Assembly: GCA_963701095.1 (NCBI GenBank)
Contig: OY969564.1
Coordinates: 2,048,001-2,112,000, forward strand
Length of the DNA stretch: 64,000 bases
Direction: 5' to 3'
Origin: an uncultured Methanoregulaceae archaeon
GTDB taxonomy: Archaea; Halobacteriota; Methanomicrobia; Methanomicrobiales; Methanospirillaceae
In this document: one piece after another, positions 15,001 through 18,000 of the stretch
Layout of the letters: every line of letters starts with the position of its first letter
Position numbering within the stretch: position 1 is the first letter of the stretch
Position numbers: made by a program

Positions 15001-18000
15001 AGTGCGGGGATCTCCTTGATGAGCCGACCGCAGCGATGCTCGTCGTGGATGCATTAGGAAGACAGCATGTCAAAATCCGGGATCTTTCCGGGAAATCAAG
15101 TTTGTTCTGTTTTTTTGCAAAGGTACTCGATAAGACCGAGCCAAAGGAATTTGACCGAAAAGACGGTGAAAAGGGATGGGTTGCCACACTTCTTGTGGGG
15201 GATGAAACCGGGACTACCCGCATTGTGCTCTGGGACGAGAAAGCCGGAGCGGCCCTTGAGATCCAAGCTGGCGACGTAATGGAGATTATAGGGAGGCACC
15301 CGGGAAAAAAGCCCGGGAGATCTACGCACTTGCATTGCGCAAAGCGACCTGCGAAATTACCTGTTCAGCGACTTCCAGCGGGAATGGGACGGTGCTATCC
15401 TCGGAACGGATAGATATGGATGCTACCCTGATTGGTGTCGATGATCCACGGACGTTTAGTCGTCGAGACGGGACGACCGGAGTGATGACGGAATGTGTCA
15501 TTGGTGATGCCGAGGGAACGGCCCGCCTTGTGGTATGGGTACCGGATCTGCTTCGAAATGTCCCTATAGGAACTACTATCCACATTACGGGTGCAAAACC
15601 GGACCGCCGCTCATCCGGGAGAGGCTATAGCGTGGATGATACAAGTATGGTGAGTCTTTCTGATGTTAGCATTACGGTTCCCTTTACTGCACTCGGATCG
15701 ATTAGCAGGTACTGGTTTTTTTTCTGTAAAGGGAGAGGTGAAGGCTGTGCAGGAGCTTCGGTCATTTACCACGCGGGACGGAAAAATCTCGTGGGTCCGG
15801 AATATCCGTATTGGAGAGGAAAGCAATGTACTTAATGTAGTTCTCTGGGGTGAGAAGGCTCTGGTACCGGTGCATCCGGGCGATTTTGTCGAGATCTACC
15901 ATGCGGAAGCAAAGCCAGACCGGTTAGGGGATTTTGAGATGGGGGTAGGCCGGGGAAGCGTGATACGTTTTCCTCATGAAGAATCACGGGCGATCACGTT
16001 TACCGGGACGGTTATTCCCGGGAACGGGGGGATATTCATTGACAATGGAACAGAGCGGTACCTCATCGAAGGTGAGTTCCCTGCCGGGTGTGAGATGAGT
16101 ATCACGGGGACGCTGTGCGGGAGCCGCATCATTCCTGAGATTGTAGAACCGGTTGAGAAAAACATTGAACAGGTCACAAACCGCCTTGCAGTTCTTGTCG
16201 CCCGACTGGGATCCCGGGCACCGCCGTAACCTCACTTTCACCCCTCGCACGGCCTTGGGTTATATGGGTGGTGTTAAAATGTTGTTGTGCCATAGGAGAT
16301 GTACAAGAAATGGCTGACAAAGCGTTAGATATAGAAGATTTACCCGGTGTCGGACCAAGCACTGCCGACAAGCTTCGTGAAGCAGGATACCTTTCTGTTG
16401 AGAGCATTGCAACCGCTTCACCTGCAGAACTTTCAGAGATCACGGAGATATCAGAAGCCACGGCAAAGAAAATCATAAAAGCGGCCCGTGAATCTGCAGA
16501 TATCGGGGGTTTCAAGACGGGAAAAGATATTTTCGAGCAGAGAAAAGACATCAGGAAACTCTCGTTCCGGGTCCCGGAACTCGACACGCTCTTAGGTGGC
16601 GGTATGGAAACCCAGGCGATCACTGAAATGTACGGTGAGTTTGGTTCCGGTAAAAGCCAGATCGTGCACCAGATGGCAGTCAACGTCCAGCTGCCTGAGG
16701 CTCAGGGAGGACTTAACGGAAGTGTCATCTATATCGATACAGAGAACACCTTCCGTCCCGAGCGTATCGAACAGATGGTAGCAGGTCTGGGTATCGATGA
16801 CGCACCCGACACACAGGAGGTTCTGGATAATATCCATATCGCCCGGGCGCATACATCAGACCACCAGATGCTCCTCGTGGAGAACTCCAGGGATCTTGCA
16901 AATGAACTTAAAGCAAGCGACAAGCCGGTGAAACTCTTTATTATCGATTCACTCACTGCACATTTCAGGTCTGAGTATGCAGGCCGGGGCACACTGGCTG
17001 CACGGCAGCAGAAACTTAACCGGCATATGCATGATCTCTTCAAGCTCATCGATGAGCACAACGCTGTTGGTCTCGTGACAAACCAGGTCATGTCCAACCC
17101 GGCTGTTTTCTTTGGCGATCCGACAAAACCTATCGGTGGAAACATTGTTGGCCACACGGCAACTTTCAGGATCTACCTGCGCAAGAGCAAAGCCGGCAAA
17201 CGCATTGCCCGTCTTGTGGACAGCCCCAACCTTCCTGAGGGTGAAGCGCCGTTTATGGTTGAAGAGGCAGGACTCAAGCCGTGTTAAAGGTGCTCCTGAC
17301 TGATGTGGATGGGACCATCACAGATCCCACCCGCCGGATAAATACCGAGGCGATCGCTTGTATCAGATCACTGATGGACGATGGTATTGAAGTCGTCCTT
17401 GCCAGCGGCAATACATCCTGTTTCATGGATGCACTCTGCAAGATGATTGGCACCAAGGGGACGTATATCGCAGAGAACGGGGGTGTGTACCGGATCGGGT
17501 ATACCGGTACCCTTCGTATCAACGGTGATCAAAGCATCAGCCGGACTGCCCTTGAAACCCTTCAAGCGTATTACCGGAAAAAAGGAGTTGAACTGGAACT
17601 CTATAACCCTACGAACCGGTACACGGATCTCGCATTTGCCCGGTCTGTGCCTGCCGAAGAGGTAAAACAAGTACTCGCAGGCTTACCGGTTCAGGTCATC
17701 GATACCGGGTTTGCCATCCATCTTCAGGCCGAAGGCATCAGCAAAGGGACTGCCCTTCTTGACCTTGCACATGATATGGGCATTTCTCCAACAGATTTTT
17801 TTGCCATTGGTGATGGTATCAACGATGTCCAGATGCTTGAATGGGCTGGTAAGGGTGTCACGATTGCCAATGCCCACCCGGCGACAAAAAAGGTGGCATC
17901 TGACGTTATGGAAGAAGCGTACGGGAAGGGCTTTGTTCAAGCCACAAAAAAATATAGATCTTACCTTCGCGCAAGGTAACGGTCGACTACGATATAATCC

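What a model noticed while it worked through the whole genome (the two positions that open the first line are those of the whole stretch)
16228..17287. A DNA-repair regulon of Methanomicrobiales marked by the box TCACTTTCAC-N3-5-GCRCGG just upstream of the TATA box (radA, [...]
One ~20-bp sequence, TCACTTTC(A/G)C-N3-5-GC(A/G)CGG followed 6-10 bp later by a TATA-like box, stands mostly 60-100 bp before the start codons of the recombinase radA (box 2064233), the mitomycin-repair-factor-like pair mrfB-mrfA (g01638-g01637, box 1492849, minus strand), the translesion system iRadA / PPB2-PolB2 (716193 minus, 601714, and the PolB2 copies of the three proviruses near 154040, 846430, 2109932), nreA-dinB (g01417-g01418, 1307523), an OB-fold SSB-like protein (g01724, 1555350) and unknown genes (g02282, g00814, g02071, g02019, provirus genes g00159 and g00865), also a YdjM homologue (g01436) and a Cas4-like nuclease (g01187). 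The box is kept before radA in all six families of [...]
Evidence so far: radA: ACTTTC 69-150 nt upstream in 24 of 24 genomes incl. this one (15 genera, 6 families; calls 121,122,124; chance per 100-nt window ~2%). A 24-column matrix from these sites gives 11 hits >=19 bits in this genome, 10 of them <=300 nt upstream of a gene in sense; reversed matrix 0; 30 column-shuffled matrices mean 0.8 hits, at most 1 upstream. Exact 9-mer CACTTTCAC: 36 copies, 12 in the -16..-110 sense window, 3 antisense; 200 shuffled 9-mers mean 1.0, max 7. mrfB: box in 13 of 13 genomes with the gene (4 families), >=19 bits in 11; gene not found in 6 of 19. g02282 homologues: 9 of 9. In other genera the box precedes iRadA-PPB2-PolB2. 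Third Orc1/Cdc6 class: box in 9 of 11 loci (18-32 bits [...]
(Added by a program. Inside this text positions count along the whole contig: contig position 2,048,001 is position 1 of the stretch shown here. "Call 12" and the like, gene names such as g00115 and contig names such as C1 are that model's own, and its searches are not shown. The text may have been shortened before it was handed on; [...] marks where a part breaks off. The agent that wrote the report below was given it as the finding of a first reader that could run no searches.)

Follow-up and report, generated by a model that had tools for sequence, protein, structure and literature searches.

The report
Repair-gene promoter box in methanogens
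A 20-base DNA word sits just upstream of the promoters of radA and other DNA-repair genes in these methanogens and many relatives; it looks like the control site of an SOS-like repair network, probably read by a spare copy of the replication-origin protein Orc1/Cdc6.

Summary
TCACTTTCAC-N5-GCACGG lies at window 16232-16252, 8 nt before a TATA-like box and 78 nt before radA. The ACTTTC box stands there in 40 of 41 genomes of the order; the 41st (G030) has ATTATC. The strict consensus matches this genome only once, so the other members carry looser variants (ANTTTC[A/G]C, a GC-rich block, TATA).

A matrix built from the other 40 radA sites gives 9 hits of 19 bits or more here, against 0.8 for shuffled matrices. 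The hits precede mrfB-mrfA, nreA-dinB, an OB-fold protein, PolB2 loci and unknown genes.

Conservation before orthologues:
- 139-aa unknown gene (in the window): 20/20
- mrfB: 27/28
- OB-fold gene: 25/29
- nreA: 5/14

New here:
- G030 carries ATTATCGCACCGCGC 13 times, before the same genes.
- The non-initiator Orc1/Cdc6 paralogue is the likeliest reader. It co-occurs with the box across the phylum, and G030's copy alone is changed at the start of the recognition helix and at the wing tip.
- The box extends to at least eight further families.

Induction and binding are untested. This is a new variant of the Sulfolobales Orc1-2/ANTTTC system. The scan earlier noted analogous boxes in DPANN and Asgard archaea.

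The parts
16232..16241 (+). Box A of the radA promoter, TCACTTTCAC (core ACTTTC at 16234-16239)
   Evidence: ACTTTC is kept at this place in 40 of 41 genomes of the order; the 41st has ATTATC.
16247..16252 (+). Box B of the radA promoter, GCACGG (GC-rich half, GCRCGG)
   Evidence: GC[A/G]CGG-like in most of the 41 radA sites. The spacer here is 2 nt longer than in most relatives.
16260..16267 (+). TATA-like box TTATATGG, 8 nt after box B
   Evidence: Across radA sites the distance from the A of ACTTTC to a TATA-like word is 24-28 nt in 29 of the 30 sites where my rule found one; in 11 of 41 it found none. The transcription start itself was not mapped.
16310..17287 (+). radA, 325 aa, with GGAGA at 16295-16299
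   Evidence: Orthologues in 41 of 41 genomes at 68-95% identity.
656..676 (-). Second full box in the window: TCACTTTCAC (676-667) and GCACACGG (663-656), then TTATATA at 648-642
   Evidence: Top hit of both matrices (22.3 and 27.5 bits).
179..598 (-). 139-aa gene of no known family, behind that box; candidate Whirly-like single-strand-binding protein
   Evidence: No Pfam match. Homologues in 20 of 41 genomes, with the box in 20 of 20 (one as ACATTC). AlphaFold2 pLDDT 85.9 with (four strands + helix) x2. VIA-align top rows: MRP1/2 Z 6.9, SsgA-like Z 6.1, PBF-2 Z 4.8, StWhy2 Z 4.2. This is below the level that can be trusted.
61932..61964 (+). PolB2-type promoter copy: CACTTTCAC (61932-61940), GGGCCGG (61949-61955), TTTATT (61959-61964)
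   Evidence: 19.5 bits. Near-identical copies at contig positions 154035, 601715, 716191, 783974, 786231 and 846431.
61988..63989 (+). B-family polymerase (PolB2-like) read as two overlapping ORFs: 61988-62968 (326 aa) and 62796-63989 (397 aa)
   Evidence: DNA_pol_B E 1.9e-16 for the second ORF, no family for the first. Intact 651-657-aa copies lie elsewhere in the genome. The split may be a frameshift or an assembly error.

Best explanation
The box is the upstream control element of a DNA-repair regulon.

**Anatomy (shown).** It is asymmetric and bipartite: ANTTTC[A/G]C, 3-5 nt, then a GC-rich block (GCRCGG, or GGCC(GG) in the PolB2-type promoters). It always points towards the gene. It ends 4-10 nt before a TATA-like box.

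**Members (shown).** The core members across the order are radA, an OB-fold (SSB/RPA-like) protein, the exonuclease-helicase pair mrfB-mrfA and a 139-aa Whirly-like protein. Members that vary by lineage are:
- the PolB2 translesion module (iRadA-like, PPB2, PolB2)
- nreA-dinB
- a Cas4/DUF2779 nuclease
- Mre11
- a radical-SAM/HhH protein
- YdjM
- extra Orc1/Cdc6 copies
- unknown and mobile-element genes

**How it works (inferred).** One molecule of the non-initiator Orc1/Cdc6 paralogue ('class 2', contig 1244624-1245745, 374 aa) binds the box. Its winged helix would sit on ANTTTC[A/G]C and its ATPase-domain ISM on the GC-rich half. After DNA damage it would help TBP/TFB onto these promoters, so it would be an activator, as Orc1-2 is on the ANTTTC element of Sulfolobales.

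**My odds.**
- Real cis-regulatory element of a repair regulon: 0.9
- Damage-responsive: 0.7
- Activation rather than repression: 0.6
For: **A footprint, not chance.**
- radA: 40/41 with ACTTTC and unrelated flanks.
- 139-aa gene: 20/20. mrfB: 27/28.
- OB-fold gene: 25/29, with N = C, G, T or A, at a fixed 62-77 nt from the ATG.
- Matrix and composite tests against shuffles.

**Coherent function.** Pfam names for the genes behind the boxes in this genome and in G004, G008, G024 and G030.

**One trans-acting reader.**
- G030 holds 13 exact copies of ATTATCGCACCGCGC (reversed control 0). Its congener G024 holds none.
- The canonical pattern is at control level in G030 (3 hits against 6 for the control), but gives 8 hits in G024 (control 2).
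- The variant stands before G030's radA, mrfB and radical-SAM gene. Its OB-fold gene has ATTGTC, where G024 has ACTTTC.

- Found in 10 of 10 tested genomes of the order.
- Phyletic match: across 44 further genomes of the phylum, 22 have both a class-2 orthologue (42% identity or more) and the radA box. 19 have neither. 1 has class 2 only. 2 have the box only.
- An automatic rule gave ACTTTC plus TATA in 16/23 class-2 genomes against 2/21 without class 2. The antisense control gave 2/44.
- Among 89 class-2 sequences, only G030 has Y330I (88 Y), G329K and T357K.
- The AlphaFold2 model puts residue 330 at the first turn of the third winged-helix helix (330-342). Residues 351-357 fall in the loop between strands 346-350 and 358-362, which is the wing.
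- The G024-G030 pair has the lowest winged-helix identity (44%) of 2000 pairs with similar ATPase identity, whose mean is 60 +/- 4.7.

**Published precedent.**
- S. islandicus Orc1-2 binds ANTTTC and activates (PMC6061795, passages read).
- The ISM and R381/R383 of its winged helix give the specificity (PMC9738581, passages). Class 2 here has R356-T-R358.
- PolB2 operons are damage-induced in Sulfolobales (PMC11791011, passages).

**Other support.**
- The origin box of this genome shares the TTTC core: TCCACACGAAACAAAGGGG, an inverted pair.
- Duplicates of class 2 ('class 3') carry the box in 4 of 5 loci seen.
Against: - There are no expression, transcription-start or binding data. Public RNA runs gave only metatranscriptome contigs of relatives.
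- The box switch is one evolutionary event. The phyletic match may rest on a few gains or losses, because related genomes are not independent.
- Winged-helix divergence alone does not predict the box. G003 has 10 changes at columns that are 95% or more conserved, against 8 for G030, yet it keeps a canonical box. G030's changes are not enriched in the winged helix overall (8/26 against 33/131 in the ATPase part).
- Two genomes of family f16 have a box-like radA site without a class-2 orthologue. One genome (G071) has class 2 but only TACTTTAC.
- By sequence, class 2 is nearer to the Orc1-1-type structures (2v1u, 1.5e-31) than to A. pernix ORC2 (1w5s, 1.5e-15). Orthology with Sulfolobales Orc1-2 is therefore not shown.
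- The class-2 gene's own promoter has no consistent box (10 of 64 loci, distal).
- Some members are not repair genes: a TrkA_C/Na+-H+ antiporter, CorA and a GyrI-like protein.
Confidence: 0.55

Rival explanations
1. The box is a real regulon operator, but another, unidentified transcription factor reads it. The Orc1/Cdc6 correlations would then be side effects of shared ancestry.
For: - Binding is untested.
- The phyletic match could reflect one clade that inherited both features.
- G003's winged helix diverged without any box change.
- Two f16 genomes have a box-like site without class 2.
- Class 2 is not clearly of the Orc1-2 cluster by similarity.
Against: - The site is asymmetric and bipartite over about 20 bp. 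That fits a monomeric Orc1 (winged helix plus ISM) better than a dimeric helix-turn-helix factor.
- Its core is the hexamer that Orc1-2 binds in Sulfolobales.
- The other candidates seen behind boxes are missing from many box-bearing genomes. The 139-aa protein was found in 0/7 of family f3 and 0/6 of f6. Class 3 is absent from 7 of 10 genomes. The roughly 60-aa protein was not found here.
Confidence: 0.28
2. The box co-regulates DNA-metabolism genes for a reason other than damage. Examples would be cell-cycle or replication-coupled expression, or a constitutive upstream promoter element.
For: - No induction data exist.
- radA and the OB-fold protein are also needed in unstressed cells.
- Some members are transporters.
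- In Sulfolobales, Orc1-2 also controls cell division (PMC9738581 abstract).
Against: The set is dominated by genes with no role outside damage tolerance:
- dinB, the PolB2 module and mrfAB
- Mre11, and a radical-SAM/HhH protein
- the YdjM homologue; E. coli ydjM is an SOS gene (recalled, not checked)

Replication genes were not among the hits of 15 bits or more.
Confidence: 0.13
3. The similarity is chance, or copies of one duplicated promoter.
For: 7 of the 23 composite sites are near-identical PolB2-type copies. The plain 8-mer enrichment is modest. One permuted control reached 20 sites.
Against: The box is kept before four unrelated single-copy genes across 6 families while the flanks diverge. 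Shuffled matrices give 0.8 hits against 9. There is also the regulon-wide switch in G030.
Confidence: 0.02

Closest known systems
Orc1-2 / DDRE (5'-ANTTTC-3') DNA-damage regulon of Sulfolobales (PMC6061795, PMC9738581, PMC12490963)
   Same: - The same hexamer core, ANTTTC, asymmetric and in promoters.
- A non-initiator Orc1/Cdc6 paralogue stands beside a true initiator.
- The PolB2 module is a member.
- Extra Orc copies carry the box, as orc1-2 does.
   Different: - Here the box is longer (ANTTTC[A/G]C plus GCRCGG) and locked 24-28 nt before the TATA box.
- The regulon holds classical repair genes, radA included. One paper's summary line says Sulfolobus repair genes are not induced by UV (PMC2246294, search listing only).
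- There is no TFB3: 5 of 5 genomes have a single TFB gene. ups and ced genes were not looked for.
- The class-2 gene itself is not consistently boxed.
- Orthology of class 2 to Orc1-2 is unproven.
Virus-borne Orc1/Cdc6 damage switch of haloarchaeal pleolipovirus SNJ2 (PMC10123103)
   Same: An Orc1/Cdc6 homologue in a euryarchaeon turns on a promoter after mitomycin C. It is thought to be activated post-translationally rather than by its own induction (passages). This fits the unboxed class-2 gene here.
   Different: It is viral, controls one gene (orf7), and its binding site is unknown. Here the protein is chromosomal, the site is defined, and more than 10 promoters per genome carry it.
Bacterial LexA/SOS regulon
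   Same: One operator word in front of recA-type recombinase, translesion polymerase, nuclease and mobile-element genes. A YdjM homologue is a member (SOS control of E. coli ydjM is recalled, not checked).
   Different: The operator is not palindromic, and it lies upstream of the core promoter rather than over it. A LexA homologue was not searched for. The likely logic is activation.
Origin recognition boxes (ORB) bound by initiator Orc1/Cdc6
   Same: A shared TTTC/GAAA core and a GC-rich flank. This genome's ORB pair is TCCACACGAAACAAAGGGGTCCCTCT.
   Different: ORBs stand as inverted pairs around an AT-rich stretch beside orc1. The box stands singly, oriented, and at a fixed distance from TATA boxes of repair genes. 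The order of the GC block and the core differs.
Repair-gene promoter boxes noted earlier by this scan in DPANN and Asgard archaea (e1-7710646, e1-1148377, e1-3793542)
   Same: Position-locked words upstream of the TATA boxes of radA and repair genes, with an unidentified reader (AI notes, unchecked).
   Different: Other lineages and other words. No candidate reader tied to the site by covariation.

Membership tests
Orc1-2/DDRE damage regulon (Sulfolobales type) | Promoter element with the core 5'-ANTTTC-3' before the regulated genes | tested here: met
   ACTTTC before radA in 40/41 genomes. A[C/G/T/A]TTTC before the OB-fold gene in 25/29. mrfB 27/28 and the 139-aa gene 20/20.
Orc1-2/DDRE damage regulon (Sulfolobales type) | A non-initiator Orc1/Cdc6 paralogue is encoded beside the initiator | tested here: met
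   Class 1 hits Orc1-1 structures at 2.4e-103. A second class (374 aa) was found in 10/10 tested genomes. Its non-initiator status is inferred, not shown.
Orc1-2/DDRE damage regulon (Sulfolobales type) | That paralogue belongs to the Cdc6/Orc1-2 cluster (PMC3914693) | tested here: inconclusive
   PDB sequence search gave 2v1u 1.5e-31, 1fnn 2.2e-18 and 1w5s (ORC2) 1.5e-15. No tree with Sulfolobales Orc1-2 could be built, because no such sequence was available.
Orc1-2/DDRE damage regulon (Sulfolobales type) | The paralogue binds the element | not testable with these tools
   Indirect support only: the phyletic match and G030's covariation of box and winged helix.
Orc1-2/DDRE damage regulon (Sulfolobales type) | Members are induced by DNA damage | not testable with these tools
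   Only metatranscriptome contigs of relatives were available.
Orc1-2/DDRE damage regulon (Sulfolobales type) | TFB3 as a co-activator within the regulon | tested here: not met
   One TFB gene (two cyclin repeats in one ORF) in 5 of 5 genomes.
LexA/SOS regulon | Palindromic operator overlapping the core promoter | tested here: not met
   The box is asymmetric and ends 4-10 nt upstream of the TATA box.
Origin recognition box (ORB) | Inverted pairs flanking an AT-rich unwinding region next to orc1 | tested here: not met
   The genome's ORB pair is a different 26-nt word. The boxes are single and locked to promoters.
Whirly fold (for the 139-aa protein) | Two four-stranded sheets, each followed by a helix; similarity to PBF-2/StWhy2/MRP1-2 | tested here: inconclusive
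   The topology fits. Z scores are 6.9, 6.1, 4.8 and 4.2, below the level the tool advises trusting. Foldseek found nothing.
PolB2 mutasome (iRadA-PPB2-PolB2, PMC11791011) | A small PPB2 with N-terminal MGRT next to a divergent B-family polymerase; an inactive RadA homologue | tested here: inconclusive
   An 84-aa ORF starting MGRT lies 101 nt after the box at contig 601715, ahead of a 651-aa DNA_pol_B protein. The iRadA-like 179-194-aa ORF has no Pfam or PDB sequence match.

The most novel reading that the evidence does not exclude
An Orc1/Cdc6-paralogue-centred damage response that reads ANTTTC is ancestral to archaea and not a Sulfolobales peculiarity. In methanogens of this order, and in at least eight further families of the same phylum, it drives a true SOS-like repair regulon. 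That regulon holds radA, an SSB/RPA-like protein, MrfAB, translesion polymerases and a new Whirly-like protein.
Probability: 0.4. Interest if true: 0.9.

Novelty: new variant of a known kind. Interest (0 to 1): 0.8.

Why it matters
- **An open question becomes testable.** Whether euryarchaea have a coordinated DNA-damage regulon, and who controls it, is still open. The authors of the Sulfolobus work asked whether non-Sulfolobales Orc1-2 proteins do the same job (PMC6061795 discussion). A viral Orc1 was called the first euryarchaeal example in 2023 (PMC10123103).
- **What this finding supplies.** It gives a defined site, a gene list, a named candidate regulator and a natural specificity swap (ACTTTC to ATTATC, with Y330I and T357K). 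The swap can be tested directly with two proteins and two oligonucleotides.
- **New repair candidates.** It nominates unknown genes as repair factors: the 139-aa Whirly-like protein, a radical-SAM/HhH protein and a roughly 60-aa protein.
- **Mobile elements.** It suggests that mobile elements tap the host's damage signal through the same box.

Tried and rejected
- **Alternative TFB as reader:** rejected. There is one TFB gene in 5/5 genomes.
- **139-aa protein, class-3 Orc or the roughly 60-aa protein as universal reader:** rejected. Each is missing from many box-bearing genomes.
- **Initiator (class-1) Orc as reader:** unlikely. It was found in all 51 genomes of the phylum sample, including those without the box, and its ORB is a different word.
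- **Autoregulation of class 2 through the box:** not supported. 10 of 64 loci have a distal ANTTTCAT. A repeated GTTGCGATTTCG flanks its TATA box here; I did not follow this up.
- **Transcription start from public RNA:** 13 metatranscriptome runs hold parts of radA. The 4 that I laid gave contigs at 90-99% likeness. These were relatives, and contig ends carry no information about starts.
- **Fold of the 139-aa protein by Foldseek against the PDB:** no match at E 0.001 or better.
- **iRadA identity:** not supported by Pfam or PDB sequence search.
- **Provirus status of window 49-60 kb:** of the 12 co-oriented ORFs there, none has a Pfam family and one has a PHROG match of unknown function.
- **Naming the other families of the phylum:** the one genome-contig scan returned only Methanomicrobiales records.
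- **Order-derived 13-column matrix on other families:** it under-scores their variants, so I replaced it with a hexamer-plus-TATA rule.
- **Earlier notes on this genome or on look-alike stretches:** none.
- **Prior description in print:** not found with the searches. Subscription journals are not covered.
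Full report
**1. 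What is at the coordinates**

Window 16232-16252 reads TCACTTTCAC-CCCTC-GCACGG. A TATA-like TTATATGG follows at 16260-16267, GGAGA at 16295-16299, and the radA ATG at 16310. The window is positions 2048001-2112000 of a single 2.63-Mb contig. Relatives of one of its proteins carry record titles such as Methanoregula, Methanolinea and Methanoculleus.

**2. Chance, and the wording of the consensus**

- The strict pattern occurs once in the window (0 in 100 shuffles) and once in the genome. It therefore describes radA only.
- CACTTTCAC occurs 36 times. 12 copies share CACTTTCAC-N7-10-GGCC(GG)-N3-5-T(T)TAT.
- A 24-column matrix from the radA sites of the 40 other genomes gives 9 hits of 19 bits or more here. 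20 column-shuffled matrices give a mean of 0.8 (maximum 3), and the reversed matrix gives 0.
- All nine hits precede ORFs. My own rough gene calls placed only 5 of them within 300 nt of a start.
- A composite rule gives 23 sites against 4.8 +/- 3.0 (maximum 20) for 150 permuted cores. 7 of the 23 are PolB2-type duplicates.
- Plain 8-mer enrichment is modest: 13 of 91 copies in sense upstream windows, rank about 268.

**3. Footprint at radA**

I sampled 41 genomes of the order (6 families, 17 genera). In all of them radA is preceded by the box, 69-151 nt before the ATG. 40 have ACTTTC and one (G030) has CATTATCGCACCGCGCGG. The flanks are unrelated. The distance from the A of ACTTTC to a TATA-like word is 24-28 nt in 29 of the 30 sites where my rule found one; in 11 of 41 it found none.

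**4. Members**

Pfam names the genes behind the boxes in this genome:
- radA
- mrfB (RNase_H_2) with mrfA (DEAD, MrfA Zn-binding domain)
- nreA with dinB
- a Cas4/DUF2779 nuclease
- a YdjM homologue
- a 415-aa OB-fold protein
- B-family polymerase copies
- a TrkA_C/Na+-H+ antiporter pair
- proteins with no family, of 139, 158, 172 and 191 aa

One PolB2 locus has an 84-aa ORF starting MGRT. That is the PPB2 signature described in PMC11791011 (passages read; ORF). Mre11 here has ATTTTCAC 24 nt before TTATAT.

In other genomes the same word precedes Mre11, a radical-SAM/HhH protein, iRadA-like ORFs, a 60-78-aa protein family and extra Orc1/Cdc6 genes.

**5. Conservation before orthologues**

| Gene | Genomes with a homologue | Box before it |
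|---|---|---|
| 139-aa gene (window 598-179, minus strand) | 20 of 41 | 20 of 20 (one as ACATTC) |
| mrfB | 28 of 41 | 27 of 28 (the miss is G024; G030 has the variant) |
| OB-fold gene | 41 of 41; 30 loci fetched, 29 evaluable | 25 of 29 with ANTTTC[AG][CT] at 62-77 nt; 2 near-variants; 2 without |
| nreA, close orthologues | 14 | 4 by the rule, plus this genome's ACTTTCTC |
| nreA, distant paralogues | 16 | 0 |

nreA-dinB is therefore a local recruit, not a core member.

**6. A regulon-wide switch**

- G030 holds ATTATCGCACCGCGC 13 times (reversed-pattern control 0). Its congener G024 holds it 0 times.
- The canonical pattern is at control level in G030 (3 against 6) but gives 8 hits in G024 against a control of 2.
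- The variant sites precede radA, mrfB, the radical-SAM/HhH gene, CorA, a DUF5677 protein and small ORFs.
- G030's OB-fold gene has ATTGTCGCACCGCGCGG, where G024 has ACTTTCAG.

Three bases changed together at about 14 promoters while box B stayed the same. This argues for one trans-acting reader.

**7. Who reads it**

Three Orc1/Cdc6 classes exist:
- **Class 1** is the initiator type. It hits 2qby_A at 2.4e-103.
- **Class 2** is 374 aa and was found in all 10 genomes tested.
- **Class 3** is 39-47% identical to class 2. I saw it only in G008 (three copies), G004 and G033. It is boxed in 4 of 5 loci.

*Phyletic match.* In a sample of the phylum, 23 of the 45 genomes outside the order have a class-2 orthologue (42-52% identity, E 1e-96 or better). 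The other 22 have only hits of 32% identity or less. radA upstream was read in 44 of the 45:
- By eye: 22 have both features, 19 have neither, 1 has class 2 only and 2 have the box only.
- By an automatic rule: 16/23 against 2/21. The antisense control gave 2/44.

*G030's protein.* Among 89 class-2 proteins, G030 alone has I for Y330 (88 Y), K for G329 and K for T357. The AlphaFold2 model (pLDDT 82.5) puts residue 330 at the first turn of the third winged-helix helix. Residues 351-357 fall in the hairpin loop, which is the wing. The G024-G030 pair has the lowest winged-helix identity of 2000 pairs matched for ATPase identity.

*Against this reading.*
- G003 has more changes at conserved winged-helix columns than G030, yet keeps the canonical box.
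- G030's changes are not enriched in the winged helix overall.
- Class 2 is not closer to A. pernix ORC2 than to the Orc1-1 structures.
- The class-2 promoter is not consistently boxed.

**8. Mechanism**

*Shown:* the anatomy, orientation, spacing, gene content, and the covariation.

*Inferred:*
- A monomer of class-2 Orc binds with its winged helix on ANTTTC[A/G]C and its ISM on the GC block. This would parallel the A. pernix Orc1-DNA arrangement and the Orc1-2 mutants described in PMC9738581 (passages).
- It acts from just upstream of BRE/TATA to recruit TBP/TFB after damage.
- It is itself switched by modification rather than by induction, as proposed for SNJ2 Orc1 (PMC10123103, passages).
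- Several member promoters have TATA-like words that depart from TTTATATA, for example CCTTATCC and TCTTTAAC. By my reading, and untested, that fits dependence on an activator.

**9. Comparison with known systems, and novelty**

The hexamer, the kind of regulator and the PolB2 membership match the Sulfolobales Orc1-2/DDRE system. The differences are:
- the longer, position-locked box
- the repair-gene content, radA included
- the absence of a TFB3
- the taxon

My literature searches found no description of such a box or regulon in Methanomicrobiales or other euryarchaea. A 2020 Haloferax review contains no passage on promoters of repair genes. Earlier notes of this scan describe analogous boxes with other words in DPANN and Asgard archaea (unchecked notes).

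**10. Limits**

- Genomes are samples: 41 of the order and 51 of the phylum.
- Related genomes are not independent.
- Families other than the window's own could not be named.
- Gene starts are my own calls.
- This assembly scores 86% complete. Its initiator orc1 and two PolB2 copies are split between frames, so 'broken' genes here may be sequencing errors.

Noticed in passing
G000 contig 1728146-1729295 (locus L243), outside the window: The initiator-type Orc1/Cdc6 gene is split between two frames (297 aa and 141 aa). With 86% completeness for a one-contig genome, and with PolB2 copies also split, this may be assembly frameshifts rather than pseudogenes.
   Followed up: partly
G000 contig about 1245750-1245900 (locus L242), upstream of the class-2 orc gene: GTTGCGATTTCG occurs twice, flanking the TATA-like TTTATTTATATAG of the class-2 Orc1/Cdc6 gene. 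It could be an operator of its own. It is not seen in the same form in relatives.
   Followed up: partly
Loci L230 (G001), L214 (G003), L207 (G008), L218 (G033): A family of 60-78-aa proteins (F..LA.RA..YP.V.RRSQ.SKI) stands directly behind a full box in three families. It was not found in this genome by tblastn.
   Followed up: partly
Loci L126, L134, L138 (G030): Three of G030's variant boxes are followed by the same roughly 35-nt sequence (cattcagaatcaaatcaggatagtgagggcagaag) and no convincing ORF. This may be a boxed non-coding RNA or a repeated element.
   Followed up: no
window 49159-59836: Twelve co-oriented ORFs. None has a Pfam family and only one has a PHROG match, of unknown function. 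They lie upstream of the PolB2 promoter copy.
   Followed up: partly
G000 contig 1535574 (minus strand) and locus L225 (G011): A high-scoring box (26.9 bits) lies 250-290 nt before a TrkA_C/Na+-H+ exchanger pair in two genera. The long gap could hide a small gene or an RNA.
   Followed up: no
Locus L253:2580-2816 (G000 contig about 1729560-1729800): An inverted pair of 26-nt origin recognition boxes (TCCACACGAAACAAAGGGGTCCCTCT type) lies 185 nt apart, beside the initiator orc1. This is the likely replication origin.
   Followed up: partly
window 61985-61999 and contig 154035, 716191, 846431: All PolB2-type promoter copies are followed by the same ggatccggtgctATGCA(A/G)ATC. At contig 716191 this opens the iRadA-like ORF (MQIEI...). 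The copies before PolB2 therefore seem to carry the promoter plus the first codons of that gene.
   Followed up: no
Loci L190 (G004), L197 (G008), L155 (G024), L144 (G030): A 345-361-aa radical-SAM protein with a C-terminal helix-hairpin-helix is boxed in three families. It was not found in this genome by tblastn.
   Followed up: partly
window 14919-15410: The gene two places upstream of radA gives a weak OB-fold match (SHLD2_OB1, E 4.9e-4, below the cut-off).
   Followed up: no
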